Positions 4,122 to 38,907 of a stretch of 64,000 bases of DNA are shown here, piece by piece. Positions within the stretch are counted from its first letter, which is position 1. Every line of letters begins with the position of its first letter. Both the position numbers and the translations under genes were made by a program. Source of the stretch: an uncultured euryarchaeote (GTDB taxonomy: Archaea; Thermoplasmatota; Poseidoniia; Poseidoniales; Poseidoniaceae); assembly GCA_937899865.1 (NCBI GenBank), contig CALBRH010000065.1, positions 1 to 64,000 of the forward strand, in the 5' to 3' direction. Below the pieces are notes generated by a model. That model saw only the letters and a list, made by a program, of their open reading frames with translations. It was not told the origin of the DNA and searched no databases.

Positions 4122-5027
4122 ATGACCGTAGGCAGAGGTTCTAACAAAAAGACCTCTACTACAACCTCAAGTTTCGGCGTCTCCAAGCGTGAGAGTCATG
4201 ATGCTTCGAAATATTATGATTCTAAGTTGTATCAAGGCATTCCCAAAGTCACTGATGTAGGCGATCCACAAGAGTTTCCAGAATTCCTGCGAGATAGCCT
4301 AGTGTGTGGTGATTCACGTGATATGAGTATGATTCCACCCAATAGTGTCCAACTAATGGTCACCTCACCACCGTACAATGTTAGCAAGGAATACGATGAG
4401 GATTTGAGTCTGCAAGAATACTTAGCCATGCTCAAAGACGTCTTTACTGAAACTTATCGCGTCTTAGCCCCGGGTGGGCGAGCAGTAATCAATGTCGCTA
4501 ATGTTGGCCGTAAGCCATACATTCCACTAACCAGTTACATCAACATGATAATGCTCGAAATTGGCTTTTTGATGCGTGGAGAAATAATCTGGGATAAGTC
4601 CGCATCTGCAGGTACAAGTTGTGCTTGGGGCTCATTCAAGTCAGCCTCGAATCCGTGCCTTAGAGATGTGCATGAATACATCCTGGTCTACTGTAAAGGT
4701 GATTTCAAACTCGAGCGCACTAAGCAAGAGCGAGCTGAAGGTCGTGAGGATACTATCGAGAAGCAGGAATTCATTGACTTCACCAAATCCATTTGGCGTT
4801 TCCCTACTGCATCGGCTAAGCGTATCGGTCATCCTGCACCGTTCCCTGAGGAATTACCACGGCGCTGTATCGAGTTTTACACCTTCAAAGGCGATGTCGT
4901 GCTTGACCCATTCATGGGTTCGGGTTCAACCGCACTGGCTGCTAAACATACTGGACGTTCCTACATTGGCTACGATATCAGTCAGGAATATGTTGACTTA
5001 GCCAATCAGCGATTAGCCGATGATTAG
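4122..5027 (+). CDS. Orphan amino-DNA methyltransferase, beta class (N4-C/N6-A)
   Basis: VTSPPYN catalytic motif precedes GHPAPFPEELPRR and the VLDPFMGSGST SAM-binding motif. Confidence 0.92.
   Translation: MTVGRGSNKKTSTTTSSFGVSKRESHDASKYYDSKLYQGIPKVTDVGDPQEFPEFLRDSLVCGDSRDMSMIPPNSVQLMVTSPPYNVSKEYDEDLSLQEYLAMLKDVFTETYRVLAPGGRAVINVANVGRKPYIPLTSYINMIMLEIGFLMRGEIIWDKSASAGTSCAWGSFKSASNPCLRDVHEYILVYCKGDFKLERTKQERAEGREDTIEKQEFIDFTKSIWRFPTASAKRIGHPAPFPEELPRRCIEFYTFKGDVVLDPFMGSGSTALAAKHTGRSYIGYDISQEYVDLANQRLADD
4195..4261 (+). repeat. Direct repeat copy 2, inside the intact methyltransferase gene
   Basis: Matches 1-67 as described for copy 1. Confidence 0.95.
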
Positions 5028-26000: not shown

Positions 26001-26476
26001 GCATCCTCTCCCGCATTACCACCAGTTTGCCCAGTATTCTGCAAATGCCATTGGTCACCAAATTTTGCATCATTTGGAATCCACTTTTTTGACATTGTCT
26101 TAGCGATTAGCGGATATGCTACCTCGATTTTCCCCTCATATTGTAATATGGCTAAATCCCTAGCACCATTGTCAAAATCTGCATCAATAATGTATGTATT
26201 CAACAGATGAGGAGTAGGAGTTCCAATCATATTTGGACTAACTACGACCCATTGTTCAACAGATTTTTTTTCCTCAAGGGAATATTGAGTAAGATCACTG
26301 GTTCTAGCAAAAGCGGCTCTTATCGCGGGAGAAAATTCGTAGGTCAGGGGTGCATCTTCAGGGTTGTCTGATAATACAGCACCAAACCCGTAATCAATAT
26401 TTGAACTTACATCGGCACTTACCATCGGAGCAAGTAGTGTCGTTAGTAAAATTACAACGATACCTCTCGCAGCCAT
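23021..26476 (-). CDS. Kexin/furin-like S8 protease with P domain, TSP3-like and CNDxNDxIxPxAxExxxxxDDxC repeats, and a C-terminal TM
   Basis: IVDDG, GHGTSAAG, SNSWGP, AAGNG, GGTSSATP; P domain EHVEVIVDIDHSYRGDLEIILTSPAG. Confidence 0.9.
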   Translation of the reverse strand: MAARGIVVILLTTLLAPMVSADVSSNIDYGFGAVLSDNPEDAPLTYEFSPAIRAAFARTSDLTQYSLEEKKSVEQWVVVSPNMIGTPTPHLLNTYIIDADFDNGARDLAILQYEGKIEVAYPLIAKTMSKKWIPNDAKFGDQWHLQNTGQTGGNAGEDANITTAWDDYRGNGVVIGIVDDGVDWNHADLDNYYEDTLDYDYCNNDGDPTPSYYDGHGTSAAGVAAAAGNNTIGVSGAAPRAGLAGLLLIACSTTDVRESNSLSHERQNIDIYSNSWGPSDNGKTVEAPGPLMLAAFEDDVAQGRGGLGNIITWAAGNGLDDDDNSNYDGYANSRNTIAVTAVTHYGVQSWYAEPGANILVAAPSDGNGEGITTTDIEGGGGYNNGDYNDDFGGTSSATPLVSGVIALILEANPNLTYRDVEHIIANSARKNDAGDSSWNVNGAGHDVSHKYGFGVIDASAAVDLAETWVNVEPVINYQSGLIDIADRQIPDNSAPGITETTQVPDSIKIEHVEVIVDIDHSYRGDLEIILTSPAGTQSILSEKHEDNGNDWNNWMFTSVHHWDEDSFGEWTLSIEDQGNGDTGTLLDWELNIYGTELNTDRDGDGLTNNDEVTIYGTDPDDIDTDDDQINDGEEINIYGTDPLSIDTDDDDLEDGREILVNGTDPLDNDTDDDGLLDGAEVDIHYTNPLIADPDADSDSFYWFQDCNDTNDQIYPNAPEILNYVDDDCDGLWDEGFNQTDSDADSLNDYEEFHVYGTDYNLQDTDGDMLDDGEEILQYQSDPLFYDNDTDLDGFYWFQDCNDTNDQINPNAVELLDAIDNDCDELIDEDFVDLDRDNDQLPDLVEFYTMNTDPLDNDTDDDGLEDGFEILTVGSEPTMFDTDGDGLSDGVEVLETNTNPRIPDLDEDGDGFRWFEECNDDDISINPDADEIWNAIDDNCNELVDDEVNRFDYIAFSSLINSTINATKDTLSLSMTIDLTDEEIENIGLELYWYRNSTLLSRNSSFEDGPYNCTTTEFGFGGLLCAGNGTIGPYTIKAVAIDEYGSAEYTWNITYFVWHPPEVVEAEDPSTVSQIVDALSENMMNVIIGILSALVLLLLAIRLRQNKSQNIPSSPPPAQLFEQNVPQYRYEQSQEKYSDVRSAPDLSMFDKK
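23640..24690 (-). repeat. Intragenic tandem acidic repeats (TSP3-like alternating with Cys-containing metal-binding-like units)
   Basis: Protein repeats DTDDDxLxDGxE and FYWFQDCNDTNDQI. DNA near-duplicates around 24081 and 24362 (tcttggaaccaata). Confidence 0.8.
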
Positions 26477-26568: not shown

Positions 26569-28437
26569 TTACAATTTAATATCTGCTGAAAAAGTGATTT
26601 TTTCGCTATTTTTTACTGCAACAAGAGCTGAGATATTGTGTTCATCACGCAACTTTTGTGGTGCTTCTGCAATCTTAACTTTTGTTTGAGCAATAGCAAT
26701 ATTTTGGCCACTAGAAACCTGGTAATCTCCATCTGGTAACCAAAATGCAACAACTCCAAGTTCACTATGTTGGCCCACGATTAAGGTTTCAGCATTATCT
26801 GTTGTAACTTGTCTAAGAACATTGAATGTAGCTGAACTTGGAAATACTTCACTTGCATCAATCCAGTTTTCTGAGGTCTCGAGTGGCTTAGCCATTACTT
26901 CTGCTTGCTTCTCGATTTCACTAATTTTTTTCTCGAACTCCTCTGAACTTGCTTGTTCAATGGTATTGATGTCATCAAGATATTTTCGAAGGCCATGATA
27001 TTGTTGAGAATCACTCTCTGTCAATGCATTGTTTGCTAAGACTAAGTATTCAGCTAATTTTTCTGTTAAATTAGAATCTTGACCGTCAATTGCGCATTCC
27101 ATCGCCTCATCAAGGACTTCAATCGCCAACCCAGCCTCATCCATTGCCAGCATGGTTTTACCAAGCAAAAACAGTTCTTGACCAGCCTTTACGATATCAT
27201 CACCAACCAATGTTTGAGCACTTGTAAGATGTTTATTTGCTACAGACTCATCACCATTTAAGAATCGAGCCATGCCTGCACAAACAACATAGCTAAGGCG
27301 TGGACTTTTTGTTGCCTGCGCTTGACGGTCTGCGGTTTCAAATAAATCCGCAGCTCTCTCCCATCTATTTCTCACCAAAGCAAGTAATCCAAGTTGATTG
27401 GTTGCCAACATTTCTGCTCCTTCGTCATCAATTAGTGTTGCATAGTGCAATGCTCTGGACAAATGGAGCCGAGCATCGATCAAGTTACCATTCATTTTTG
27501 CCAACATAGCAAGACAAGATTCCATTCTGTACAAATGTCCAGCCATTGCCCTATGGGCTATTTCTGCCATCTCTTCATCTAAGGGGGCCAGACCAAGACC
27601 AACTCTTTCAAGTACAGAACTTATTTTTTCAATTCCTTCAGCATATTTCTCATCAACAATTACTGAATCGCTTTTAGATATTTGATCAAGATATTCGTCA
27701 AGTTCACTAACAGGTTGGCAAATTTCAGGTAGACCGCCTAATGCGTTAATGTGAGATTTCTTTGGCACACCACCGAGTAAGAACTTTCTCAAAGCCCGAA
27801 TCAATTTCTGTTCTGAACTCTTTTCTTGCTGTGGTTCTGATGATTTTTCTTTAGGCTTGTTATCAATAAGTGAGTCTACCATCCAAGTTAATTTGGCTTG
27901 AATATCGTATTCATTTACTCTGCTGATAGCATAACGCATTTCGGCTGCCCTTGTCCGTCTAGATAAGCTTCTAAATCTCGATTTACATGCATTGGGTCCG
28001 GTTTCGGATAGCCTCTGTAAGAAGGTGGATGGTGGACATGTGGTGAAGCCAAGGTTGACTTTTTGGCTGGTAGTAGTCATTTTGAAATCATCAGTAACCA
28101 AGGTGACATCACGACCTTCCCTTGATAATTTACTAGCCAGTACCATTAGCGATAAATCAACATCTTGAGGGGCTGCTCTTTCACCGATTTGGCTTGCTAA
28201 ACCTTTAATCTGATCATCATCAACAGCAATTGTTGTCAGTATTGGCTTCATTTTATCAAGCAGATTAGGCTTGTTTTTCCATCTTTGAAATCGTACAGTT
28301 CTAACTTCATTATGCACTCCTGGAGTTACGAATATGCCTTCCGGGATGCTCTTCGATAAATCTTCAATTAAGTTGTCTTGAGCCATTGAACCCATATGAA
28401 TGAAACAATTTGAGTCCACAACCCAAGTAGTTGCCAT
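26569..28437 (-). CDS. NOB1-like PIN nuclease domain fused to TPR-like helical repeats
   Basis: WVVDSNCFI, HNEV, QDVDLSLMVLA and LVTDDF give the acidic tetrad, followed by TPR-like repeats (ARLHLSRAL, AADLFETA, AIEVLDEAM). ATG 28437 preferred. Confidence 0.7.
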   Translation of the reverse strand: MATTWVVDSNCFIHMGSMAQDNLIEDLSKSIPEGIFVTPGVHNEVRTVRFQRWKNKPNLLDKMKPILTTIAVDDDQIKGLASQIGERAAPQDVDLSLMVLASKLSREGRDVTLVTDDFKMTTTSQKVNLGFTTCPPSTFLQRLSETGPNACKSRFRSLSRRTRAAEMRYAISRVNEYDIQAKLTWMVDSLIDNKPKEKSSEPQQEKSSEQKLIRALRKFLLGGVPKKSHINALGGLPEICQPVSELDEYLDQISKSDSVIVDEKYAEGIEKISSVLERVGLGLAPLDEEMAEIAHRAMAGHLYRMESCLAMLAKMNGNLIDARLHLSRALHYATLIDDEGAEMLATNQLGLLALVRNRWERAADLFETADRQAQATKSPRLSYVVCAGMARFLNGDESVANKHLTSAQTLVGDDIVKAGQELFLLGKTMLAMDEAGLAIEVLDEAMECAIDGQDSNLTEKLAEYLVLANNALTESDSQQYHGLRKYLDDINTIEQASSEEFEKKISEIEKQAEVMAKPLETSENWIDASEVFPSSATFNVLRQVTTDNAETLIVGQHSELGVVAFWLPDGDYQVSSGQNIAIAQTKVKIAEAPQKLRDEHNISALVAVKNSEKITFSADIKL

Positions 28438-28549
28438 AGACAGACCAAGGAGAGTCATTGATTGAGGTTTACGCTGATAAGCCGCATAACCGAGAACATA
28501 AGCCGTTACAACCAAAAGAATCAGACTACTGGCATATACTGGTGGAGAT

Positions 28550-28954
28550 ATGAGTTCAAAAGATTCAAAGTCCAGAGATTTTGACCATCTTATAGAACAA
28601 AACTCTACTGAACTATCCTTCTTGTCAGCCTATGGTGGCTTGACTAGTGATACTGCGGATTCCACAGGTATATTTTCTGCAATCAAGCGATTTTTGGCAG
28701 CAGGCGGAGTGGAATTTTCTGAATCTAAAGAAAAATTAGAATTTGAATTTGGCTATGTCAAGATTGTTGATAATGGCGTCAAGGTGCACGTTAAAGGTAA
28801 GTCACTCCCATTAGTTGCAAGTGATTTAACCCAAGCTGGATTTGTTGATGGTAAGTTGCCAGCCCGTCGCGGGTCTTGCACAGTTACCTTGCAGGATTGG
28901 GATATTGAACAGCGTCGATTTGTTGAGCGTATAGTCGAACATTTGTGCCGTTAA
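28550..28954 (+). CDS. Hypothetical protein
   Basis: GGAGA before ATG, 134 aa, 4-nt convergent overlap with the next gene. Confidence 0.6.
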   Translation: MSSKDSKSRDFDHLIEQNSTELSFLSAYGGLTSDTADSTGIFSAIKRFLAAGGVEFSESKEKLEFEFGYVKIVDNGVKVHVKGKSLPLVASDLTQAGFVDGKLPARRGSCTVTLQDWDIEQRRFVERIVEHLCR

Positions 28955-29481
28955 GACTCCATTTCCCACAACTCATCGCCAAACCAATGCAAAGTTTTGA
29001 TGCCTTTGCCTTTACTTGCTTCAGCCATTTCACTACCGGCCATAATTGACCAACCGATCGCTAATGGTTTTTTATGAGTCATATCTCTAATCCAGACCAA
29101 CTCTCCTTTCTCAATAGTCTCATCAGCAGCTTGAACTCCTGCTACCATACAATCAGCACCATTCATCAAAAACGGTATTGCACCATGGTCAACTTCAACC
29201 CATTTTGCCGCATCATTATGTTCGAGAAATCCTCGGAGTGTTAAGAAAGCGAAACGTTCATTGTCATCATTTTTGACCTCGATTGCTATGGCCACCTTGT
29301 TAACAAATACCATCTGCCATGGACCATATTCTGCCATTTCAAGAAACGCACCATCAACCGAAAGGTCAATTCCCAGTGATTGTTCAAGTGCCTTTAGCAA
29401 TGGGGCAATATGTTTTCTGCGCACCGGACGTCGCTTTCGGATACTCCAATCCTTGCTCATCATGGGGGCCTCTTTGTACAA
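28951..29481 (-). CDS. PUA-domain RNA-binding protein (DUF1947/MCT-1-like)
   Basis: FLTLRG...VEVDHGAIPFLMNGADCMVAGV...KPLAIG...KGKGIKTLHWFGDELW. The start is probably ATG 29463 or 29460. Confidence 0.88.
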   Translation of the reverse strand: MYKEAPMMSKDWSIRKRRPVRRKHIAPLLKALEQSLGIDLSVDGAFLEMAEYGPWQMVFVNKVAIAIEVKNDDNERFAFLTLRGFLEHNDAAKWVEVDHGAIPFLMNGADCMVAGVQAADETIEKGELVWIRDMTHKKPLAIGWSIMAGSEMAEASKGKGIKTLHWFGDELWEMES

Positions 29482-29505
29482 GTCTTTGACAGTTATCGCT
29501 AGCGA

Positions 29506-30141
29506 GTGATTGATGAGCCGGTTAATACTGGCAGTAGCATGGCTCTATGGTGTTCAATCCGCACATTTGCTAAACATGCCAAAGAATTGGGTAACGAGCA
29601 ACCTACAGAGCCAGTATTTTTTGTTAAACCCAATAATTGCATACAACGTAGTGGCCCAATACAAGTCTCCGCACATCCTGGAAGCGTCCATCATGAAATT
29701 GAATGTGTCATCAAATTAGGTAATGATTTGCAACCAGAAGCAATTGCAGTAGGATTGGATTTAACCGATCGAGAAACTCAGTCACAACTGCGTACAGATC
29801 AACTACCTTGGTCAAAAGGCAAGTGTTTCAAAGGCAGTGGAGTAATTGGAGGATTGCATCCTTTTACAGGTGATTTTGATGAAATTTGTAATGGCCAATT
29901 CTCACTCAAGTTATTGGTCAATGGTGAACTTCGCCAATCAGCAAATCTCTCGTCAATGAGCATATCTCCAAGCCAACAAATGACCAGCTTGCAATCATGG
30001 GCGCCGGTAATGGCTGGTGATTTTTTATTCACAGGGACTCCTTCAGGAGTGGCTCAATTATTTGCTGGCGACAAGGTAGAAGCGATACTTGAAATGATTG
30101 ATGGCACGATAATTTCTCAGATAATCACAGTATGTGAATGA
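29506..30141 (+). CDS. Fumarylacetoacetate hydrolase family protein
   Basis: RTFAKHAKEL, PVFFVKP, HHEIE, GLDLTDR, WSKGKCF, GDFLFTGTPSGV. Confidence 0.9.
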   Translation: MIDEPVNTGSSMALWCSIRTFAKHAKELGNEQPTEPVFFVKPNNCIQRSGPIQVSAHPGSVHHEIECVIKLGNDLQPEAIAVGLDLTDRETQSQLRTDQLPWSKGKCFKGSGVIGGLHPFTGDFDEICNGQFSLKLLVNGELRQSANLSSMSISPSQQMTSLQSWAPVMAGDFLFTGTPSGVAQLFAGDKVEAILEMIDGTIISQIITVCE

Positions 30142-30196
30142 GGGTTGCTTTCATATATGCCTCGCCAGTCGGTGTGTTCTGCAAGGAGACAACACA

Positions 30197-30577
30197 ATGG
30201 CTCAATGGCATGGAATTTCACGCAGAAAACCAAGTGGTGGAAGATTGGTAAAGGCTCGCGGTAAGCGCTCTACTGAAATCTCTACAGAAAAGCAAATCGC
30301 TCAAATTGGAGAGCCAAAGAGAAAGATTTACCGCAGAACTGGCGGTAATACTCTAGTTCGTGTTCTATCTGAAAATAGAGTCTCAATCAATGACCCAAAG
30401 ACTGGAAAGACCACAATGGGAACTATTGAGAATGTTGTTGAGAACGAATCAGACCCTAACTATGTGCGTCGAAACGTACTGGTCAAGGGTGCTATCATCG
30501 AAACCGACAAAGGTCGTGTTCGAGTTACTTCTCGTCCAGGTAAGGACGGTGTCATCAACGGCGTGCTAATCGAGTGA
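30197..30577 (+). CDS. rps8e: 30S ribosomal protein S8e
   Basis: MAQWHGISRRKPSGG...YVRRNVLVKGAII...TSRPGKDGVING, with an AGGAG RBS. Confidence 0.96.
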   Translation: MAQWHGISRRKPSGGRLVKARGKRSTEISTEKQIAQIGEPKRKIYRRTGGNTLVRVLSENRVSINDPKTGKTTMGTIENVVENESDPNYVRRNVLVKGAIIETDKGRVRVTSRPGKDGVINGVLIE

Positions 30578-30611
30578 ACGCAGGTTGCGTTCTTTGCGCC
30601 AAGGTGAAACA

Positions 30612-31079
30612 ATGGACCACAATCCTGACCGAATTTGTGTTTGGCCTGGATATTTTGATGCCAAGACTTCACGTCGTAGTGGTCGCAGAGTTCCAAGAGA
30701 TTCTTCAGTTCTAAAACCTGATCTTGAAGGATTATTCTATGCTGCAAGACGAGTTGGTTTAAAGAAAATCAAGCGTGAGGAGAATATTTCTCATCCAAAG
30801 AGGCCATATGGTAAAGAAGGCAGATTATGGGTTTCACGCTCAGGTGCCAAACAATCTATTGGTGCTAGCAATAAAGAAGAATTGCTCCAAATGATTGGTG
30901 GTCAATGGCGCCAAATACAAAAAGATGCCAAAGAAAACGAAGCACAGAGAGTTGCTGAAGGTCCTAAAACTGGTGATAAGCGAGGACGTTCTCAACGAAA
31001 ATCACGTGGACAAAAATCATCTGGACAACAAAAATCACGGTCAAGTTTCAAGAAGCGTTCAGGCTTCAAGAAGCGTTAA
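30612..31079 (+). CDS. srp19: Signal recognition particle subunit SRP19 with basic C-terminal extension
   Basis: VWPGYFDAKTSRRSGRRVP and HPKRPYGKEGRL. An AGGTGA RBS precedes ATG 30612. Confidence 0.88.
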   Translation: MDHNPDRICVWPGYFDAKTSRRSGRRVPRDSSVLKPDLEGLFYAARRVGLKKIKREENISHPKRPYGKEGRLWVSRSGAKQSIGASNKEELLQMIGGQWRQIQKDAKENEAQRVAEGPKTGDKRGRSQRKSRGQKSSGQQKSRSSFKKRSGFKKR

Positions 31080-32099
31080 TCAAAGCGGTACTTCGTGCAG
31101 CCAACCGAAGATATCTTCTTCAGTTTCATTTTGAATTCCAACCAACTGATTGTATAATCTCTCAGTCATTGGGCCAGGCTTTCCATCACCATAAGTGGCT
31201 TTGACATCGCCTTTAGTAATCGAGCCAATCGGTGAGATAACAGCTGCAGTTCCGCAACAGAAAGCCTCATCTGCACTCATAGCAAATTCAGCAGTAACTT
31301 TAGTTTCATGCACTTCTATTCCAGCATGTCGAGCAAGTTGAATAATACTGTCACGAGTTATTCCAGGTAAAATTGTACCAGTTAACTCAGGCGTATACAA
31401 TACACCATCTTTGACGCAGAAGAAGTTAGCAGCACCTACTTCTTCGATACAAGTATGAGTTTCAGCGTCCAAGTAAATTATCTCAGCATAGCCTTTTGAT
31501 TTAGCATCCTTGCTTGGCATCATACCAGGTGCATAGTTGCCAATTGCTTTGACTCCACCAGAGCCACCGGGTGCAGCTCTGTGATAAATATCTGAAATTA
31601 GTAAATCAATCGTTTTCACTCCACCTTTGAAGTAAGGGCCAACAGGAGTGACATAGACTAAGAATCGATAAGATGGAGCAGGTGCAACACCTAGAATTGG
31701 ACCAGAACCCATCAGCAGAGGCCGTACATACATTGCACCTCTGCCCATTGGCGGCAACCATCTAAGATTTGCTTGTACACATTGTTCAACCGCATCGACA
31801 AATATTGATTCTGGTACTGGAGGCATTTTCAATCGATCTGCTCCTCGCTGCATTCGTCGAGCATTTTCTTCAGGTCTAAAGAAAACTACTCGGTTCTTGG
31901 ATGTACGATAAGCTTTCATTCCTTCGAATAATCCTTGGCCATAATTCAATACTCCAGCCGCTGGAGAGATTTTCATATCACCATATGGTAATAAATCGCC
32001 TGGCATCCATGCATCGTCTATACCGGTTTCAGTGATATACATAGTATCGGTTGGAGTTAGGGAAAAGGTTAGACTATCCCAGTCAATTTCCTCACTCAT
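31080..32099 (-). CDS. ilvE: Branched-chain amino acid aminotransferase (class IV PLP)
   Basis: LNYGQGLFEGMKAY, VKAIGNY (PLP Lys), EVGAANFF, ILPGITRDS, CGTAAVISPI. Confidence 0.95.
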   Translation of the reverse strand: MSEEIDWDSLTFSLTPTDTMYITETGIDDAWMPGDLLPYGDMKISPAAGVLNYGQGLFEGMKAYRTSKNRVVFFRPEENARRMQRGADRLKMPPVPESIFVDAVEQCVQANLRWLPPMGRGAMYVRPLLMGSGPILGVAPAPSYRFLVYVTPVGPYFKGGVKTIDLLISDIYHRAAPGGSGGVKAIGNYAPGMMPSKDAKSKGYAEIIYLDAETHTCIEEVGAANFFCVKDGVLYTPELTGTILPGITRDSIIQLARHAGIEVHETKVTAEFAMSADEAFCCGTAAVISPIGSITKGDVKATYGDGKPGPMTERLYNQLVGIQNETEEDIFGWLHEVPL

Positions 32100-32227
32100 G
32101 ATATACCCTCGGCATTTTTAGCCATAGAAATTCGGCTTTCAATCATTACTGTCAAATGCGACAAGGAAAATTGCCATTTCTCGAGTAAATATCATTACTT
32201 ATCCTCGACTCGATATTTCTGTTTAGC

Positions 32228-32911
32228 ATGAATATTGAGCAACTTTCGAGTCAACTTTCGTTGAAACTCGAAGAACTTGGCTTCTCTGCTGCAATACCTA
32301 TTGCTTTACTCTCTGCTCTACTTTTTACACAAGGTTATCGAAGGTTACAAATTGTAACATTGATGGTAGGCGGGGCGATTGGTTATGTGCTTGCACCAGA
32401 AATTATTCCGGTTGTAAATGAATTAGGGCTAGCACTAAATCCTCTACAAATTACTGCAATTGTTTGTTTCGCTTTCGGTTTAATACTTTCAACTTCGGTT
32501 CTTCTTTCAGCCCGCTTACTTACTTCAGCATTTATTTTCATCACTTTTTCAACTGGAATTGAGACATTGAATAACTATGGTTTTGATGTTGAGCGTAGTG
32601 AGTTATGGAGCGGTATTGCCGCATTATTTGCGTTATTTTTTACGATGGGAATTAACAAAATGCTTCCAGCGGTTTTCTCTGCAATTTTTGCCGCATACGG
32701 TTTTGTTATTGCCGGATTATTATTCACTGGTAATCAATTAACTATCTATGAGCCAGTTGATGTAAAGACCTTTGTCTTGATATTGCCATTAGCGATTTTT
32801 TCATTGATGTTACAAAATATGGACAAAGCAAAACAAGAAGAAAAAGAACTTGCCAAATATGATACAGACCCTAAAACAATTGAAACCCAACAACATTTTT
32901 TGAAACTGTAA
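32228..32911 (+). CDS. Integral membrane protein (DUF4203-like, tentative)
   Basis: About 7 hydrophobic segments with small-residue GxxxG patterns. Confidence 0.65.
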   Translation: MNIEQLSSQLSLKLEELGFSAAIPIALLSALLFTQGYRRLQIVTLMVGGAIGYVLAPEIIPVVNELGLALNPLQITAIVCFAFGLILSTSVLLSARLLTSAFIFITFSTGIETLNNYGFDVERSELWSGIAALFALFFTMGINKMLPAVFSAIFAAYGFVIAGLLFTGNQLTIYEPVDVKTFVLILPLAIFSLMLQNMDKAKQEEKELAKYDTDPKTIETQQHFLKL

Positions 32912-32968
32912 TCAATTGAAACAATTTGTAGGAAAAATGTTGATAATCTTTCGTACTGTACGAACGAC

Positions 32969-35900
32969 ATGCGCACCGGCCACGTAAAGAGAATAAGAGA
33001 GTTAAGAGAAGAAGATGCGGTAAGCCCAGTTATTGCAACCATATTGATGGTAGCAATTACAGTAGTACTTGCTGGAACATTATACGTTTGGGCAGCAAAC
33101 CTCGCTGAATCAAATACAGATGGAGATTTAGATTTGTATACTTTTGATAGTAATGATGCTGCAGGTTCGCCATCTACGGCCGCAGATGACAATCTTGCCA
33201 TCACTACGATGACCCAAGGTGAAAGCATTGGTTGGGCTAGTCTGGCAGTCTCAGTTTCAGTCGATGGTGCAGCAGCAGTACAGTGTGCGCTTCCGGGTCA
33301 GACTGATGGCGCCTGCATAGTCGTTGAAAGCGAAACTAACGATGGTGGCGTTTGGTCAATGGGCGAAGATATTACGATTCAAGAAAATGGAGTTGATTTG
33401 TGTAATGCCGCATTATGTGATTTGTCAATAACTATCACGAATGTTCGTGCAGGCAAGTCACTTGGAACAACAACAACTGTTAGCGAACAAGGAGGTTCTT
33501 TAGTAGCATTGCCAAGAATGGCTACCCAAACCATAGGTGCAGACGGTGGCTCAATATCTATTCAAGGTGCAACCATTACTATTCCAGCCGGAGCACTTGC
33601 AGCTGATACTGAATTGACATTCGAAGCATTAACTGCAGCAGATGTTAACGACCAAGATGTTAGTGGCTACGATATCCCAACCACTTTCCTGAAACTCACA
33701 CCTCATGGTACAACTTTCTCACAACCTGTTACTGTAACTATCGCAGCAACATCTGGCATGCCAGACAACCCAACAATCTATACCAAGGCTAATGATAACG
33801 CAGAGTGGGAAGAATTTAACGACCAAATCACCGTCAATACCAATACAATTACTTTCCAGATTTACAGTTTTAGTTACTATTTCGGTACTGATGCAACACC
33901 TGATGATGTTCCAAGAATCTCTTACTGGTGGGGTAAGGTAAACCAACATATTGAGAATGGCCAGTGGACTACTGACCCAGACGGCTCATCCGGTGCAAAC
34001 TTAGACATGTTACAATATTGTCAAAAGTGGTATCCAGATACCGTATCAGTAGTTGAACTACCAGAGCGTGAAGCAATCGTATTCTATAATGCTGGTAACA
34101 ATGGATATTTCCCGACTATCAAGCCAGTATTCGAATGTGTACAACCAGATGATGGAACAGGTGGCGGTGGCTCTGGCGGTGGCGATCCAAATGCCTGTTG
34201 GGTTTGGGCAGATTGTATGGCTGGGGGGTATTGCCTGAATGGCGTCTGCGTTTATGACGACCAAGATATGGATGGTATACCAGATGACCAAGACAACTGT
34301 CCAACCAACGCTAATGCTGACCAAGCAAACGCAGATGGTGATGTGTATGGAGATGCCTGTGATGCATATCCAAATACCAATTTTGATCCAGACGATCCTT
34401 GTACTAGCGAATTCAATCCTGTGTGTGGTATTGACGGAAATACCTATGGTAATCCATGCGAAGCAATGAAAGCTAATGTTCAAGTTGATTACAACGGACA
34501 ATGTGGCAACTGCGTTCCAGATTGCGCAGGTTGTGAATGTGGCGATGATGGCTGTGGCGGTAGTTGTGGAACTTGTTCAAATGGAGAAATATGTAACTAT
34601 AACCAGATTTGCGTAGAATGTACTTCTGATGCAGTTTGTCCATCAGGTACTCCTCTATGTAATCCGACTGGTGAATGTGTAGAGTGCACAAGCAATGCTT
34701 GGTGCGCTACTGGTTATTGTGTTGATTATGAATGTGTGGATTGCATGACTGATGCAGACTGTCCATCAGGCATGATGTGTGATGGTAATGGCGAGTGTGG
34801 CACAGGCTATTCTCCTACTCATTACATCGACATCGAAAATATGGAATTTGGTGATAGTGTTGATGCCATGCTCGCCACAGATGTGGCTTGGGGAGACGTT
34901 GATGGTGATGGCGACCTTGATTTGGCTATTAGTGGCGATGGCTCTGATGGTTCTAAGACGAAATTATACATTAATGACGGAACCACTCTATCTACTACGC
35001 CAATTTGGGAAATCGGTGGTACCTCAAGTGAATCGTTCTATGGATTAGATTGGGGTGATTTGGATGGTGATGGTGATTTAGACCTTGCATTAGCGAATTC
35101 CCAAGGTTCAAACCAAGTCTACCTAAATACTGGAACAACGCTCGATACAACTCCTGCATGGTCGAACAATGGTCCTTCCTTCGACGTTAAATGGGGAGAC
35201 ATCGATGGTGATGGAGATCTGGACTTAGCGTTTGCTAATATTGCTGGTCCAGATGAAGTGTTTTTGAACAATGGCAATAGTCTATCATCAACACCATATT
35301 GGACAAGTCCAACTAATGGTGGGTCAATGGAAATCGAGTGGGGCGACCTTAATGGAGACGGTGCGCTTGATTTAGTAGTTGGATATTCGAATCTTGCCAC
35401 TGAGATTTTCTACAACCTTGGTACTACATTAGATACTAATGTTGGTTGGACACCGAACATTGCATATGATTCTTTTAACGTTGAATTAGGAGATATTGAC
35501 GGCGATGGAGATTTAGACATCGTATTAGGCCATAATTCTGGTAAAATTACCATGCACAAAAACTTAGGCAGTTCAATCGATACTAATCCAGCATGGACAT
35601 ATCAACACGGTTCCAGCATAGCCGTTTATTGGGCACTTGACTTATCCTCCGATGGGAAATTATTGACTGGCGGATATTCGGTCGGCATAGTCGAGATATT
35701 CGAACCAGATATGATGCAACACGGAAACCAAATTTGGGGTAACTCACCTGATATACAAATCCAAGATGGCAATACTACATATGGCATGGCTTGGGCTGAT
35801 ATTGATGGTGATAGCGACTTAGATTTTGCAATGGCTCGCAATACAGGCGGTAATCAATTGGCACCAGAGATATATATATTCACACAAATAAACTACAACA

Positions 35901-36160
35901 CAAATGAAGTGGGTTATGTTGGTAGCTGGTCAAACACAATAATCATTTCTGGTTCTGACACAATTGTTTGGATGAATCTAGATTCCGTCACTCATAGTGT
36001 AAAGGAAGGCACTCCGACAGGTAGCCCGCTTTTCTATTCAGGTGATTTAACAAATGGTCAAACATACTCATGGACATTTTCAGAATCACAAAGTAGGGTT
36101 ATCACTTACATTTGTTTGCAGCATAATTCTATGATTGGTACTATCATCATTAGTATTTGA
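32969..36160 (+). CDS. Giant mosaic type IV pilin-like adhesin (Pilin_N, ZU5, TSP3, Kazal, Cys-rich repeats, FG-GAP propeller, cupredoxin)
   Basis: Class III signal EEDA/VSPVIATILMVAITVVLAG; ZU5-like TIGADGGSI...TPHGTTFSQPV; CTSEFNPVCGIDGNTYGNPC; six GDxDGDGDLD-type repeats; H...YICLQHNSM. Confidence 0.85.
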   Translation: MRTGHVKRIRELREEDAVSPVIATILMVAITVVLAGTLYVWAANLAESNTDGDLDLYTFDSNDAAGSPSTAADDNLAITTMTQGESIGWASLAVSVSVDGAAAVQCALPGQTDGACIVVESETNDGGVWSMGEDITIQENGVDLCNAALCDLSITITNVRAGKSLGTTTTVSEQGGSLVALPRMATQTIGADGGSISIQGATITIPAGALAADTELTFEALTAADVNDQDVSGYDIPTTFLKLTPHGTTFSQPVTVTIAATSGMPDNPTIYTKANDNAEWEEFNDQITVNTNTITFQIYSFSYYFGTDATPDDVPRISYWWGKVNQHIENGQWTTDPDGSSGANLDMLQYCQKWYPDTVSVVELPEREAIVFYNAGNNGYFPTIKPVFECVQPDDGTGGGGSGGGDPNACWVWADCMAGGYCLNGVCVYDDQDMDGIPDDQDNCPTNANADQANADGDVYGDACDAYPNTNFDPDDPCTSEFNPVCGIDGNTYGNPCEAMKANVQVDYNGQCGNCVPDCAGCECGDDGCGGSCGTCSNGEICNYNQICVECTSDAVCPSGTPLCNPTGECVECTSNAWCATGYCVDYECVDCMTDADCPSGMMCDGNGECGTGYSPTHYIDIENMEFGDSVDAMLATDVAWGDVDGDGDLDLAISGDGSDGSKTKLYINDGTTLSTTPIWEIGGTSSESFYGLDWGDLDGDGDLDLALANSQGSNQVYLNTGTTLDTTPAWSNNGPSFDVKWGDIDGDGDLDLAFANIAGPDEVFLNNGNSLSSTPYWTSPTNGGSMEIEWGDLNGDGALDLVVGYSNLATEIFYNLGTTLDTNVGWTPNIAYDSFNVELGDIDGDGDLDIVLGHNSGKITMHKNLGSSIDTNPAWTYQHGSSIAVYWALDLSSDGKLLTGGYSVGIVEIFEPDMMQHGNQIWGNSPDIQIQDGNTTYGMAWADIDGDSDLDFAMARNTGGNQLAPEIYIFTQINYNTNEVGYVGSWSNTIIISGSDTIVWMNLDSVTHSVKEGTPTGSPLFYSGDLTNGQTYSWTFSESQSRVITYICLQHNSMIGTIIISI

Positions 36161-36225
36161 GACTAATTATGAATCAATACGAAGGGCAATAACAGGGCTG
36201 TGCCCTGTAGTGTTTGGGCAGAGCC

Positions 36226-38907
36226 ATGCAGTTCGACGGCAGACTCGGGATAATCAGTGGACGGTACCACTCTCTCGATGGTTCTGAAGGTGTCAAAGAG
36301 CACCAAACAATCCTCGAAGTATTTGGCCGTTGTGAAGATGGCCGTTCGATTTGTCTGCTCATCAAAGGTTTACAGCCGAGTTTTGAAATTTCTCCATTAC
36401 TTGCCTGGAAAGTAGGTCAAGAAATACCTCAACATACTAAAGATTCAATTCAGAAGATAGCTGAAAAGGAAGATGTTGTCAAGATTGAAGGTCCAACAAT
36501 GAAACTCACCGATCTCGGCATGCGACCAATTTGGCAGGTCACTACGCGCCAACCATATGTGGTGCCAAACTTGCGTAAATCGCTAGAAAAGCAGGGCTGG
36601 GGTGTTTACTCTGGCGACATTCCGTTTCTCAATCGGCTATTCTTAGATTTGGATTTGAGTATGCATATCCACGCTAAGGGTAAGATAATCGATACCATTG
36701 ATGCACCCAATAATGACATGCAGCAAACTATCAAAGTGCGGGCTGCTGGTGGTGCCGGGCGCTACAGTGTTGACATAACTGTGGCCTGTACAATCGATGA
36801 CTTATCCGATACTGATGCATTTCAAGTGCCGTTCAAGGTATTCTCATTTGACCTCGAAACCAGTATCAAAGATGAATCAGTCTTATGTGCTGCAGCATGG
36901 ATTGAAGATATGGGGACTGGAATCCGACAGAAGTACGCACTGGAAGGTGAAGAAGGACATATTTTGGAGCAACTGACCCTTATTGTTCGCTCTCAAGACC
37001 CTGACATAATCACCGGTTATAACATTGATAATTTCGACTTACCAAGGCTTAAAGACAGGGCTGATGAACTCAGTAAAAGAGGTGGCTGGCGTCGTAAAGC
37101 CGCCTTATTTGGCTGGGGTAGGGTAGAGCAATCCGAGCAAGAAATCAAGCGTACTCGAACCGGACTAATACCTCGTCGGCAAAGCAATCGTGCTTGGAAT
37201 TTGGCTGGAAGAAGCGTAGTCGATGCTTGGTGGCAAACTCGTATGACCATTAGGCCACAGCGTGAAACCCTGTCCTATGTGGCAAAGTTACTATTTCCAG
37301 ATGATGAAGATAGACACAAAATGGATGTTGATGCTTCAAAGATGGATGAGGAATGGGCGGCACGACCAGATGTTGTGATGGAATATTGTATTCGAGATGC
37401 AGAATTGCCGTTAGATATTCTTGAAGAATTACAAGTGATTAGACGAAAGGAAGCAACTGCAGCAGTTGCAAAAGTTAGTTTTGATACTGCGGCAAATGGT
37501 AGTTCAAGCCAACTGGTTGATTCCTTGATAATCCGACTAGCAGATAACGAAAATGTTGCTGTACCTCTTACCGGTTCGGCAGAACCAAAGGAAGGACAAA
37601 TCACTGGCGGTTATGTTCACGATGTTGATGCTGGACTGCATCCATGGATTGCTGTTCTGGATTTCAAAAGTATGTATCCGTCAATCATGATTGGTAGTAA
37701 CGTCTGCTATACGACAAGAATAGATCCAATTCAATCAGACCAACCAGCAGAGGATGAGCCTGTTCACGTTGCACCAACAGGTGCTAGGTTCCGTCATCAA
37801 AGTGTTCGCAAAGGCTTGGTGCCGAACCTACTTGAAAATTTGATGGCGCAACGTGATGTTCACAAGAGCGCTCTCAAGCAAGCTAAGCAAGACAAGGATT
37901 CAGCAGGAATAATGTTTCATGATTCGATGCAATATGCGGTTAAAATTCTCATGAATACTTTCTATGGAGTCTTTGCTAGTGGTTTTTATCGCTTTACCCA
38001 TCGCGATTTGGGCTCTTCAATTACCGCTTGGGCACGCTTCAATATCAAAGATATAATCGCGCAATTAGAAGCCGAGGGACACCATGTAGTCTACTCTGAC
38101 ACAGATTCAATTTTTGTTCGCTCACCAGTACCAGAGGGCTCACCGTCAACCATTAGACCGGATGAGCAAGATGCAGCAGACGCTGGTGATGAGACTGCAT
38201 TGGCTAAAGTTGAAGCCTGGCATATAGCCAAGCAGAGTATGATTGATTTCGGCATAGAAATTGCTGAGCGATATAGTAAGGACTCTGCGGTATTAGAGTA
38301 TGAAAAAGGCTTGTCAGTATTCTTTTCTCATGGTGCTAAAAAGCGCTATGTCGGGCAAGTGGTCTATCCTAGCGAAGAGATGTTAATTCGTGGGTATGAG
38401 ACTCAGAGGACTGACTCGTTTGCTTATCTAACCAAGACCATGAAGGAATTATTCACCTTTGCTTTGGCAGATCAAGAGGCAGAATTAGTCAAATGTGCAT
38501 TGGAACGAGTCAAAGCACTAAGAAATAACGAAGTTGACCCAACCGAGTTAATTTTGGCTAAATCATGTAAGGGGACGGTAAGAAAAGACGGTAGTGTTGA
38601 TTTTTCCAAGGCTTATGCCAATCCAGATAGTATGGCACAGGTAAGAGTTGCTAGGGCAAGAATTGAACTCGGACTTGGCTTTACCTCAGGTATGAAAGTC
38701 TCCTATGTGGTGACCGATGCCTCACGTTCACCGATGGTAGTAGAGCCTTGGTTAGAATCAGAAGAAGATGGTGGAATTTCTGAATATGATGGTAAGTTCT
38801 ACGCTGAGCGTTTAGCGGCTGCATTGGGCCGAATTACCGAAGCATTTGGCTGGAATGCCAAGGAATTGCTAGCAGGAAACAAGCAGAGTTCACTATTTTC
38901 CTTTTAA
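36226..38907 (+). CDS. polB: Family B DNA polymerase
   Basis: Exonuclease FDLETS, GYNIDNFD, YCIRDAE; polymerase DFKSMYPS, KILMNTFYG, YSDTDS, KKRYVG. No intein. Confidence 0.95.
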   Translation: MQFDGRLGIISGRYHSLDGSEGVKEHQTILEVFGRCEDGRSICLLIKGLQPSFEISPLLAWKVGQEIPQHTKDSIQKIAEKEDVVKIEGPTMKLTDLGMRPIWQVTTRQPYVVPNLRKSLEKQGWGVYSGDIPFLNRLFLDLDLSMHIHAKGKIIDTIDAPNNDMQQTIKVRAAGGAGRYSVDITVACTIDDLSDTDAFQVPFKVFSFDLETSIKDESVLCAAAWIEDMGTGIRQKYALEGEEGHILEQLTLIVRSQDPDIITGYNIDNFDLPRLKDRADELSKRGGWRRKAALFGWGRVEQSEQEIKRTRTGLIPRRQSNRAWNLAGRSVVDAWWQTRMTIRPQRETLSYVAKLLFPDDEDRHKMDVDASKMDEEWAARPDVVMEYCIRDAELPLDILEELQVIRRKEATAAVAKVSFDTAANGSSSQLVDSLIIRLADNENVAVPLTGSAEPKEGQITGGYVHDVDAGLHPWIAVLDFKSMYPSIMIGSNVCYTTRIDPIQSDQPAEDEPVHVAPTGARFRHQSVRKGLVPNLLENLMAQRDVHKSALKQAKQDKDSAGIMFHDSMQYAVKILMNTFYGVFASGFYRFTHRDLGSSITAWARFNIKDIIAQLEAEGHHVVYSDTDSIFVRSPVPEGSPSTIRPDEQDAADAGDETALAKVEAWHIAKQSMIDFGIEIAERYSKDSAVLEYEKGLSVFFSHGAKKRYVGQVVYPSEEMLIRGYETQRTDSFAYLTKTMKELFTFALADQEAELVKCALERVKALRNNEVDPTELILAKSCKGTVRKDGSVDFSKAYANPDSMAQVRVARARIELGLGFTSGMKVSYVVTDASRSPMVVEPWLESEEDGGISEYDGKFYAERLAAALGRITEAFGWNAKELLAGNKQSSLFSF

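What the first reader, a model, noticed from the sequence alone, without database searches (positions are those of the whole stretch)
32969..36160. Multi-tool giant pilin: seven module types on one class III signal peptide
Seen, in order: prepilin motif and pilin head; ZU5-like domain (~33518-33880); a YWWGKVNQH...YCQKWYP domain; TSP3 unit; Kazal (34400-34504); CxxDxxC Cys-rich repeats; 7-blade FG-GAP-type propeller (~34820-35880); cupredoxin. Established: archaeal pilins are usually 150-250 aa, and ZU5, Kazal and FG-GAP are best known from eukaryotic extracellular and receptor proteins. Inference: a minor or tip pilin that displays adhesion, protease-inhibition and redox functions, built by domain shuffling on a conserved pilin base. 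It may be one member of a variable cassette family used for particle or host attachment.
Basis: partly seen in the sequence, partly recalled or inferred. Interest (0 to 1): 0.8.

Follow-up and report, generated by a model that had tools for sequence, protein, structure and literature searches.

The report
Giant modular archaeal pilin, swappable cargo
A marine archaeon (Marine Group IIa) carries a 1063-residue protein that has a pilus-subunit head followed by a chain of adhesion-type domains ending in a copper-binding domain. Close relatives keep the head at the same chromosomal spot but have swapped the outer domains, so this looks like a fast-changing attachment device in one of the ocean's most abundant archaea.

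Summary
Window 32969-36160 (+) is one intact 1063-aa ORF.

One correction: the propeller is nested inside the cupredoxin, after its first strand.

The host is a Ca. Poseidoniaceae (MGIIa) MAG. The domain-shuffling idea holds:
- At the same slot (aminotransferase, 227-aa TM gene, pilin, polB), relatives carry alleles with the same N-terminal ~465-610 aa but different middles: RCC1, LTD, MopE, HYR/Ig, with or without the nested propeller.
- All complete alleles end in a cupredoxin, and the His/Cys/His/Met ligands are invariant in 19 aligned alleles.
- A relative with ~94% nucleotide identity loses homology exactly at 34366 (end of TSP3) and regains it 14 nt after the stop codon.
- The gene is absent from this slot in 8 of 17 scorable species representatives.
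- The genome also holds a bare 154-aa pilin and cargo-bearing paralogues with a nearly identical N-terminal helix, a FlaK/PibD-like peptidase and two pilus machineries.

Filament incorporation, adhesion, protease inhibition and redox function remain inference.

The scan noted this same stretch in an overlapping window, not on other DNA.

The parts
32969..36160 (+). Whole ORF, 1063 aa: modular pilin
32969..33019 (+). Leader of the class III signal peptide (residues 1-17, basic then acidic, ending ...EEDA). Predicted cut is before VSPVIAT.
   Evidence: Read from the sequence. TIGR02537 and Pilin_N matches start at residue 16. The cleavage site itself is inferred.
33020..33112 (+). Hydrophobic N-terminal helix (residues 18-48). 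Almost every residue from 17 to 50 is invariant across 30 alleles and paralogues.
   Evidence: Model helix 20-48; invariant columns
33113..33493 (+). Beta-rich pilin head (residues 49-175), homologous to the stand-alone 154-aa pilin on contig C9
   Evidence: hits to archaellins and archaeal type IV pili
33518..33886 (+). ZU5-like beta domain (residues 184-306)
   Evidence: Pfam 26.2 bits; Foldseek ankyrin ZU5 E 1e-7
33887..34162 (+). APP_N-like domain (residues ~307-398; growth-factor-like, heparin-binding domain of amyloid precursor protein)
   Evidence: Pfam 27 bits. PDB phmmer N-APP E 8e-6. 1305 cluster representatives carry the domain, and Pfam calls APP_N in 7 of 8 tested.
34163..34243 (+). 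Gly-rich linker and small 4-Cys knot (residues 399-425)
   Evidence: Read from the sequence; conserved in both allele groups
34244..34369 (+). Thrombospondin type 3 calcium-binding repeat(s) (residues 426-467). Its end is the commonest recombination junction.
   Evidence: (COMP, TSP-2)
34394..34504 (+). Kazal-like domain with 4 Cys (residues 476-512). Reactive-loop motif CTSEFNPVCG.
   Evidence: Kazal_1 36.4 bits; aligned to ovomucoid third domain
34505..34804 (+). Cys-rich stalk (residues 513-612, 21 Cys, three CV[ED]C...C..G repeats)
   Evidence: No Pfam family; weak TIGR04201.
34817..34852 (+). Displaced first strand of the cupredoxin (residues 617-628, THYIDIENMEF)
   Evidence: An uninterrupted counterpart lies on contig C56.
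34871..35878 (+). Seven-blade FG-GAP propeller (residues 635-970) nested in the cupredoxin. Five blades keep a full D-x-[DN]-G-D-[GS] calcium-type motif.
   Evidence: D1-D3
35930..36154 (+). Remainder of the cupredoxin (residues 988-1062)
35993..36133 (+). Type-1 copper ligand codons: His1009 (35993-35995), Cys1049 (36113-36115), His1052 (36122-36124), Met1055 (36131-36133)
   Evidence: Aligned to plastocyanin/amicyanin ligands. Invariant in 19 alleles. Codons His1052 and Met1055 read.
34367..36173 (+). Replaced segment relative to a ~94%-identical relative: homology ends at 34366 and resumes at 36174
32228..32911 (+). Context: conserved 227-aa multi-pass membrane protein upstream. It is kept even where the pilin is absent, so it is probably not part of the system.
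36214..38907 (+). Context: family B DNA polymerase immediately downstream

Best explanation
This is a modular archaeal type IV pilin of a Marine Group IIa (Ca. Poseidoniaceae) archaeon.

Shown:
[quoted passage not shown] In order these are ZU5-like, APP_N-like, TSP3, Kazal-like and a Cys-rich stalk, then a type-1-copper cupredoxin with a 7-blade FG-GAP propeller nested after its first strand.
- The gene sits in a fixed slot next to polB.
- The segment distal to the TSP3 repeat, or in other alleles distal to the pilin head or to the Cys-rich stalk, is exchanged between lineages at domain boundaries. The whole gene is also repeatedly gained or lost.

Inferred mechanism:
- The FlaK/PibD-like peptidase of the genome removes the 17-residue leader.
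- The helix, nearly identical to that of the bare 154-aa pilin and of two cargo-bearing paralogues, lets the protein enter the same pilus. One of the two TadC/ATPase systems would build that pilus.
- Because of its bulk, it would sit as a rare or tip subunit.
- The displayed modules would bind particle, algal or cell surfaces. Their turnover would be driven by changing ligands and/or by viruses that use the pilus.
- The strictly conserved copper site implies a copper-dependent role at the distal end whose nature is unknown.
For: Pilin identity:
- Pilin_N and TIGR02537 score above their cut-offs.
- The model has helix 20-48 plus a beta head that hits the Halobacterium, Methanococcus and Aeropyrum archaella and the Haloferax and Natrinema type IV pili.

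Machinery in the same genome:
- A FlaK/PibD-like protein on C47 scores Arc_PepC_II 31.3 bits (cut-off 29.9) and carries MDHKERRV and GGADAK motifs.
- There are two non-archaellum ATPase + TadC loci, on C1 and C63, and a separate archaellum operon with true archaellins on C25.

Co-assembly hint: nearly every residue from 17 to 50 is invariant across 30 alleles and paralogues, including a 154-aa bare pilin.

Cargo swapping:
- The same syntenic slot was found in all 6 alleles looked up.
- BLAST break points fall at residues ~182, 464-505 and 610, and the middle domains differ.
- Nucleotide identity is 94.6% up to 34366 and 94.0% from 36174, with no homology between except a 67% stretch in the propeller.
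- Cargo type changes at least 12 times on the tree of the constant region. The window's N-terminus is closest to an RCC1 allele (93%), while its cargo is closest (91%) to an allele whose N-terminus is only 78% identical.
- Presence or absence changes at least 6 times on the tree of the flanking gene.

Copper site: His, Cys, His and Met are invariant in 19 alleles that are only 29-38% identical to the window's cupredoxin, and they align to the plastocyanin/amicyanin ligands.
Against: - No direct evidence exists for cleavage, for incorporation into a filament, or for any binding, inhibitory or redox activity.
- The gene is not next to pilus assembly genes.
- PF01478 (the A24 catalytic domain) does not match the candidate peptidase. 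No match reached the family cut-off in 21 Poseidoniales genomes, only four weak sub-threshold hits.
- An ~890-aa cargo is far larger than in any modular pilin shown experimentally to be in a filament.
- The models are poor for residues 315-520. They do not resolve the displaced cupredoxin strand.
- The Kazal-like domain lacks two of the six canonical cysteines.
- The APP_N match covers only about half of the profile.
Confidence: 0.6

Rival explanations
1. It is a cell-surface protein that uses the pilin-like N-terminus only as a secretion signal and membrane anchor, as the class III signal peptides of Sulfolobus sugar-binding 'bindosome' proteins do. It is never polymerised into a pilus.
For: The gene is isolated from assembly genes. 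The cargo is very large. In the same genus a 4,500-5,500-aa surface protein also carries this pilin module, at its C-terminus after a membrane hairpin. That suggests the module can serve as a general anchoring device.
Against: The full globular pilin head, not just the signal peptide, is conserved (54-62% identity to the paralogues). The helix is kept nearly identical to that of a bare pilin. That is expected if the helices must pack together in one filament and is unnecessary for a simple anchor.
Confidence: 0.22
2. The main role is redox. The pilin base and stalk hold a blue-copper centre away from the cell for extracellular electron transfer, copper or iron reduction and uptake, or supply of electrons to extracellular oxidative enzymes. 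The variable domains only target it.
For: The cupredoxin is the one distal module present in every complete allele, and all four ligands are invariant. Another protein in the genome ends with the same Cys-rich stalk plus cupredoxin.
Against: No partner redox protein is encoded nearby. A single copper centre at the end of a ~900-aa non-redox chain has no evident electron path to the cell. Some alleles on contigs of about 1.6 Mb (525 and 556 aa) have no copper-domain family listed.
Confidence: 0.1
3. The variable cargo serves strain-specific cell-cell recognition or virus evasion rather than particle attachment. This would resemble the species-specific Ups pili of Sulfolobales, or replacement islands selected by phage pressure.
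For: The replacement is sharp between ~94%-identical genomes, and the gene is repeatedly gained and lost. Contigs often break inside the gene: 5 of 9 species representatives that carry it. Replacement islands in aquatic microbes encode exposed structures and are linked to phage predation (PMC4033161).
Against: The modules (propellers, TSP3, LTD, Ig/HYR, APP_N-like) are generic ligand binders, and nothing shows self-recognition. This reading is also compatible with the main explanation rather than opposed to it.
Confidence: 0.07
4. It is an assembly chimera or a decaying gene.
For: MAG origin; many relatives' contigs end inside the gene.
Against: The identical 1063-aa protein is on 5 contigs from independent sources. 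Two variants differ at one residue. There is an 80%-identical colinear homologue. The frame is open throughout.
Confidence: 0.01

Closest known systems
Bacterial modular type IV pilins (Streptococcus sanguinis PilB with a vWA module, PilC with a lectin module; Raynaud et al. 2021, PMC8179133)
   Same: A small N-terminal pilin module carries grafted functional module(s) on a linker. These pilins are proposed to be tip-exposed and to mediate adhesion. Many architectures exist (264 reported).
   Different: That survey used the bacterial N-methylation signature, and the paper does not mention archaea. Here the pilin is the archaeal PF07790 type. The cargo has eight segments and is about 890 aa long. 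The cargo is exchanged between close relatives at one locus, and a copper domain is always at the end.
Haloferax volcanii PilA1-6 adhesion pilins (DUF1628/PF07790 family with a conserved hydrophobic N-terminus; Esquivel et al. 2013, known to me and cited in PMC5069720)
   Same: Same Pfam family. Several paralogues in one genome share an almost identical hydrophobic helix. They are stand-alone genes away from the assembly operon. The Haloferax pilus subunit 8fj5 is a fold hit.
   Different: PilA1-6 are small, head-only pilins. Here the same head carries 340-890 aa of cargo in at least three paralogues.
Replacement flexible genomic islands of aquatic prokaryotes (Lopez-Perez et al. 2014, PMC4033161)
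   Same: Same chromosomal position, conserved flanks, non-homologous content, sharp boundaries, an exposed cell structure, and exchange by homologous recombination between lineages.
   Different: The replaced unit here is the distal part of a single gene (about 1.8 kb), with its left junction inside the reading frame at a domain boundary. It is not a multi-gene island.
VARTIG hypervariable Ig-domain protein module of Thermococcales (Makarova et al. 2021, PMC8416519)
   Same: An archaeal large surface protein whose C-terminal part is hypervariable through recombination between lineages.
   Different: Here there are no downstream variable partner genes and no polymorphic-toxin-like organisation. 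The carrier is a pilin. Whole domains of different folds are swapped, rather than one Ig domain diversifying.
Neisseria pilE/pilS pilin antigenic variation
   Same: A constant pilin N-terminus with a variable C-terminal part generated by recombination.
   Different: No silent donor copies of other cargo types exist in this genome. The variation is therefore between lineages, not a within-cell switching system.
Amicyanin / plastocyanin / halocyanin (type-1 blue copper proteins, PF00127)
   Same: His ... Cys-x2-His-x2-Met ligand set with amicyanin-like loop spacing. Sequence matches to plastocyanin 1bxu and amicyanin 1id2 align the ligands.
   Different: It is fused to the distal end of a pilin instead of being a small soluble or lipid-anchored carrier. 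In five alleles the domain is split by a nested 340-aa propeller.

Membership tests
Archaeal type IV pilin (PilA type, Pfam PF07790 / TIGR02537) | Class III signal peptide: short charged leader, small residue at -1, then a ~30-residue hydrophobic helix | tested here: met
   Leader of 17 residues ending EEDA, then VSPVIATILMVAITVVLAG.... PF07790 34.2 bits (cut-off 25.2); TIGR02537 44.3 bits (cut-off 20). Model helix 20-48.
Archaeal type IV pilin (PilA type, Pfam PF07790 / TIGR02537) | Beta-sandwich head with the archaeal pilin/archaellin fold | tested here: met
   Foldseek hits 9eq7 (TM 0.48 by target), 7txi, 5z1l, 8fj5 and 8gi2, probability 0.99-1.0. pLDDT is 70-83 over the head.
Archaeal type IV pilin (PilA type, Pfam PF07790 / TIGR02537) | Cognate prepilin peptidase and ATPase/TadC assembly genes in the genome | tested here: met
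   C47 protein: Arc_PepC_II 31.3 bits (cut-off 29.9), with Asp-containing motifs; PF01478 itself does not match. T2SSE/T2SSF pairs on C1 and C63, apart from the archaellum operon on C25.
Archaeal type IV pilin (PilA type, Pfam PF07790 / TIGR02537) | Processed and polymerised into a filament | not testable with these tools
   Needs biochemistry or imaging.
Modular type IV pilin (sense of Raynaud et al. 2021) | N-terminal pilin module plus at least one non-pilus domain fused C-terminally | tested here: met
Modular type IV pilin (sense of Raynaud et al. 2021) | Extra module directly mediates a pilus function such as adhesion | not testable with these tools
   Inference from domain types only.
Type-1 copper cupredoxin (PF00127) | His, Cys, His, Met ligand set in the canonical positions | tested here: met
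   His1009, Cys1049, His1052 and Met1055 align to the plastocyanin/amicyanin ligands and are invariant in 19 alleles.
Type-1 copper cupredoxin (PF00127) | Contiguous Greek-key beta-sandwich | tested here: inconclusive
   Pfam is only just above cut-off (22.1 vs 21.2) and starts at profile position 17. The first strand lies 360 residues upstream. Model pLDDT is 50-80 and the displaced strand is not resolved.
Kazal-type serine protease inhibitor (PF00050) | Six cysteines forming three disulfides | tested here: not met
   Only four Cys (478, 486, 497, 512). Those corresponding to Kazal Cys1 and Cys5 are missing. It is therefore filed as Kazal-like.
Kazal-type serine protease inhibitor (PF00050) | Reactive-site loop and core motif C-T-x-E-x-x-P-V-C-G-x-D-x-x-T-Y | tested here: met
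   CTSEFNPVCGIDGNTYGNPC aligns to [20 protein letters not shown] of ovomucoid third domain. Kazal_1 36.4 bits. The residue at the ovomucoid P1 position is Ser480; that Leu18 is the ovomucoid P1 residue is from my own knowledge.
FG-GAP / integrin-alpha-type seven-blade propeller | Seven FG-GAP repeats closing into a propeller, with Ca-type D-x-D-x-D-G loops | tested here: met
   7 FG-GAP_3 stretches, 136 bits. pLDDT above 90 for five blades. Hits to ITFG2, CRTAC1, BBS and integrin alpha.
ZU5 domain (PF00791) | ZU5 beta-sandwich | tested here: met
   26.2 bits vs cut-off 21. Foldseek ankyrin ZU5 E 1e-7 to 1e-5, TM 0.55-0.57 by target.
APP_N (growth-factor-like domain of amyloid precursor protein, PF02177) | Full-length match to the domain and its disulfide pattern | tested here: inconclusive
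   27 bits vs cut-off 22.1, but only profile positions 2-57 of 100. phmmer to N-APP gives E 8e-6. Only two Cys lie in the segment. The model is unreliable here. Prokaryotic relatives score up to 62 bits.
Pilin antigenic variation with silent cassettes (pilE/pilS type) | Promoterless donor copies of alternative variable regions in the same genome | tested here: not met
   tblastn of seven alternative cargo regions against the 2.0-Mb, 91%-complete genome found no donor copies.
Replacement flexible genomic island | Same position, conserved flanks, non-homologous content and sharp boundaries between close relatives | tested here: met
   presence/absence

The most novel reading that the evidence does not exclude
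Marine Group IIa archaea display a strictly conserved blue-copper redox centre at the far end of a pilus subunit. A ligand-binding propeller is nested inside the copper domain, so substrate binding and electron transfer would be physically coupled outside the cell. Lineages re-tool this device by swapping whole domains at one hot locus. That would be a new kind of extracellular redox and adhesion appendage in oxic seawater.
Probability: 0.1. Interest if true: 0.9.

Novelty: new variant of a known kind. Interest (0 to 1): 0.62.

Why it matters
Marine Group II archaea are among the most abundant surface-ocean microbes and are uncultured. How they attach to particles and phytoplankton is inferred mainly from 'flagella' and thrombospondin genes (PMC6461757).

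This locus gives a concrete, testable candidate: a pilin that carries its own adhesion modules. It extends the 'modular pilin' idea from bacteria to archaea in an extreme form. It also shows domain-level replacement inside one gene between ~94%-identical genomes, which can serve as a marker of strain-level surface diversity in metagenomes.

The invariant copper site, and the propeller nested in a cupredoxin, are unexpected structural features with no assigned function.

Tried and rejected
- **Silent-cassette model:** tblastn of seven alternative cargo regions against the own genome found no donors.
- **Flanking direct repeat:** a 19-nt repeat lies near the two ends of the variable segment (34194 and 36204, D6). 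The left copy is absent from the closest alleles, so it is treated as chance.
- **Upstream gene as peptidase or partner:** the 227-aa membrane gene has no supporting family, and it stays in place where the pilin is absent.
- **PF01478 search:** no match above the family cut-off in the own genome or in 20 relatives. The candidate peptidase was found through weak hits, then tblastn and PF06847.
- **Archaellin reading:** true archaellins (PF01917) sit in a separate operon on C25.
- **Structure of residues 315-520 and of the displaced cupredoxin strand:** the models were too uncertain to use.
- **Literature:** searches for an earlier description of MGII modular pilins, or of a pilin fused to a cupredoxin, found none in the held library. 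Esquivel et al. 2013 is not held.
- **Not attempted:** a complex prediction, because filaments are a poor use of that tool.


Full report
**What is there**

Window 32969-36160 (+) is a single open frame of 1063 codons. The neighbours are archaeal housekeeping genes: ribosomal protein S8e, SRP19, a class IV aminotransferase, family B DNA polymerase, pyruvate kinase and EF-1alpha. The window is the first 64 kb of a 95.6-kb contig of a 2.01-Mb, 91%-complete genome. Record titles of the closest loci name Candidatus Poseidoniaceae, 'MGIIa-L1'.

**Domain anatomy**

On the whole protein and on sub-sequences, Pfam and NCBIfam give the following:

| Module | Residues | Score (cut-off) |
|---|---|---|
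| Pilin_N | 16-99 | 34.2 (25.2) |
| TIGR02537 | 16-42 | 44.3 (20) |
| ZU5 | 186-259 | 26.2 (21) |
| APP_N | 315-363 | 27.0 (22.1) |
| TSP_3 | 426-452 | 34.1 (25) |
| Kazal_1 | 476-512 | 36.4 (21) |
| FG-GAP_3 | within 635-970, seven stretches | 136 |
| Copper-bind | 989-1061 | 22.1 (21.2) |

- Residues 513-612 hold 21 cysteines in three CV[ED]C...C..G repeats, with no Pfam family.
- The model of residues 1-520 is usable only for 20-310. Its best matches are ankyrin ZU5 domains (E 1e-7) and archaellin or archaeal type IV pilus subunits, including those of Halobacterium, Methanococcus, Haloferax and Natrinema.
- The model of 505-1063 has a propeller at pLDDT above 90. It matches seven-blade propellers such as ITFG2, BBS proteins, CRTAC1 and integrin alpha.
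- Sequence search of the PDB aligns the TSP3 repeat to COMP and thrombospondin-2. It aligns the Kazal loop CTSEFNPVCG to [10 protein letters not shown] of ovomucoid third domain, residues 315-363 to the N-terminal domain of amyloid precursor protein (E 8e-6), and the C-terminus to plastocyanin and amicyanin with the copper ligands in register.
- The Kazal-like domain has four cysteines, not six.
- The APP_N-like domain is a common prokaryotic surface module. It matched 1305 cluster representatives, often in several copies and combined with CARDB, fn3, subtilase and bacterial TSP3.

**A correction to the linear order**

In all alleles without an FG-GAP propeller, the cupredoxin begins with a strand reading ...IHNI[ND]IQNMA[YF]SPS..., which runs straight into the rest of the domain. 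In the five FG-GAP alleles the same strand (THYIDIENMEF in the window, residues 617-628) is followed by the propeller, and the cupredoxin resumes about 360 residues later.

An HMM built from uninterrupted cupredoxins matches those alleles in one piece (positions 1-85). It matches the FG-GAP alleles in two pieces: positions 1-33 before the propeller and 16-85 after it. For the first piece, i-E is 2e-7 and 9e-7 in two alleles and 0.0018 in the window, in a 7-sequence search.

This agrees with Pfam, which starts at profile position 17 in FG-GAP alleles and at 6-7 in the others. A contig-end ORF on C56 has the window-type strand directly continuous with a cupredoxin.

The propeller is therefore nested in the cupredoxin. 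The structure model does not resolve this.

**The same locus in relatives**

Twenty-odd homologues share residues 1 to ~465, ~505 or ~610 at 64-91% identity, and the last ~90 residues at 34-47%. They differ in between. The middles are:

- FG-GAP;
- RCC1-like propeller plus FG-GAP;
- RCC1-like alone;
- MopE-type metal motifs;
- lamin-tail domain;
- unassigned sequence.

A second group keeps only the head (69% identity) and the TSP3 region. It carries HYR, bacterial Ig-like and cadherin-like domains. It is the most common form among the longer homologues listed from metagenomes.

All six alleles whose contigs I fetched lie in the same slot: PUA, FAA hydrolase, S8e, SRP19, aminotransferase, 227-230-aa membrane protein, pilin, polB, PKD protein, pyruvate kinase, EF-1alpha.

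The closest one (flanking membrane protein 98% identical) is 94.6% identical in DNA from 26969 to 34366 and 94.0% from 36174 onward. Identity stays at 92-96% in 300-nt windows across the constant part of the pilin. Between 34367 and 36173 there is no homology apart from a 67% stretch in the propeller. The left junction is the last codons of the TSP3 repeat (GDACD). The right junction is 14 nt past the stop codon.

**Evidence that the parts move independently**

- On a tree of the constant 470 residues, cargo type changes at least 12 times for 8 states.
- The window's N-terminus is closest to an RCC1 allele (93%). Its cargo is closest (91%) to an allele whose N-terminus is 78% identical and sits in another well-supported clade.
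- The whole gene is dispensable at this slot. Five more distant same-genus genomes have the aminotransferase directly beside polB.
- Among 18 species representatives with the membrane gene, 8 have no pilin and 9 have one (five of those are cut by a contig end inside the gene). One contig ends too early to tell.
- On the tree of the membrane protein, presence changes at least 6 times. Single-gene trees of recombining loci are rough guides only.

**The conserved end**

Every allele that is not cut by a contig end finishes with a cupredoxin carrying C-x2-H-x2-M. In an alignment of 19 alleles, His1009, Cys1049, His1052 and Met1055 are invariant, although the window's domain is only 29-38% identical to most others.

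**Paralogues and machinery in the same genome**

Seven Pilin_N matches exist:

- a 154-aa pilin that is essentially the head alone (C9);
- a 490-aa form with three copies of an unassigned repeat (C28);
- a 492-aa form with a lamin-tail domain (C60);
- the window's gene;
- a divergent 164-aa pilin on the same contig (C63) as a TadC-TadC-ATPase cluster, about 5 kb downstream of its ATPase;
- a 5514-aa ORF with the pilin module at its C-terminus (C55);
- a seventh, weak match below the family cut-off on C44, which was not examined.

Nearly every residue from 17 to 50 of the helix is invariant across 30 alleles and paralogues.

The genome has a FlaK/PibD-like protein that passes PF06847 and carries Asp motifs, although PF01478 misses it. 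It has two non-archaellum ATPase/TadC loci. It also has a separate archaellum operon with PF01917 archaellins.

**How it most likely works**

Shown: the protein is a member of the archaeal adhesion-pilin family with a long, modular, lineage-variable ectodomain and a conserved copper site.

Inferred, by analogy with bacterial modular pilins, which are proposed to sit at pilus tips and bind ligands directly (PMC8179133):

- The leader is cut before Val18.
- The helix enters a pilus made mainly of the 154-aa pilin.
- The bulky cargo is displayed at the tip or sparsely along the filament.
- The modules bind sulfated or other glycans (APP_N-like), calcium-dependent ligands (TSP3 and the propeller) and perhaps proteases (Kazal-like). 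The window itself encodes two secreted subtilases.

The sharp, repeated replacement fits the pattern of replacement flexible islands of aquatic microbes, which are linked to phage pressure on exposed structures (PMC4033161). What the copper centre does is open.

**Comparison with what is known**

Modular pilins are established in bacteria, but that survey did not cover archaea. The census of archaeal type IV pili that I searched mentions large adhesin or minor-pilin candidates, but no such fusion family and no Marine Group II. The MGII genome survey discusses flagella and thrombospondin genes for adhesion, not pilins. A DUF1628 pilin-type gene was among the most transcribed MGII genes in the Red Sea.

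I found no description of this locus or of a pilin-cupredoxin fusion in the held library. I therefore rate it a new variant of a known kind, not a new category.

Noticed in passing
Own genome contig C55 (L052:1596-18140, minus strand), outside the window: A 5514-aa ORF with no Pfam match over its first ~4,800 aa. It ends in a TM helix, an RRDDDEEE... loop, then the AVSPVIATILMV pilin helix and a ~180-aa pilin head. The junction is conserved without stops in 34 of 41 same-genus genomes, inside open frames of 4,500-5,500 aa. A prepilin-peptidase cut would split it into an anchored giant protein and a free pilin.
   Followed up: partly
window 34634-34636 (residue 556): Three otherwise identical 1063-aa versions of the protein differ only at residue 556 (Val, Asn or Ala), in the Cys-rich stalk.
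   Followed up: no
Own genome contig C56:5949-6425 (minus strand), outside the window: A contig-end ORF ends with Cys-rich repeats and an uninterrupted cupredoxin (C-x2-H-x2-M). Its first strand (THYIDIADMEY) matches the strand displaced in the window's protein. It may be the tail of another surface protein of the same kind.
   Followed up: partly
Own genome contig C47:16569-17561, outside the window: The candidate FlaK/PibD-type peptidase has GGAD where I recall GxGD in the canonical enzymes. It is missed by PF01478, which gave no match above cut-off in 21 Poseidoniales genomes. Only the C-terminal PF06847 domain is recognised.
   Followed up: partly
window 33887-34162, and proteins P0125-P0269: The APP_N-like domain, known from animal amyloid precursor protein, has at least 1305 cluster representatives. 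They are often multi-copy and sit in large secreted proteins with CARDB, fn3, subtilase and TSP3 domains.
   Followed up: partly
window 23021-26476 (-), 5024-7552 (-), 44578-50934 (+): Other large secreted proteins lie nearby. One is a subtilase with P-domain, MopE motifs and bacterial TSP3 repeats. The second is another subtilase. The third is a 2118-aa protein with an InhA-like MAM domain. MopE and TSP3 modules also occur in alleles of the pilin.
   Followed up: no
window 36194-36208: A 6-bp stem with a 3-nt loop (CAGGGC tgt GCCCTG) lies between the pilin stop codon and the polB start. Its 3' arm lies in a polB-upstream 19-mer that is also found in the two closest relatives.
   Followed up: no
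window 32228-32911: A conserved 227-aa multi-pass membrane protein of unknown family (weak TM7S3/TM198-like lead only). It is present in the sub-clade that can carry the pilin and absent, together with the pilin, from more distant same-genus genomes.
   Followed up: partly
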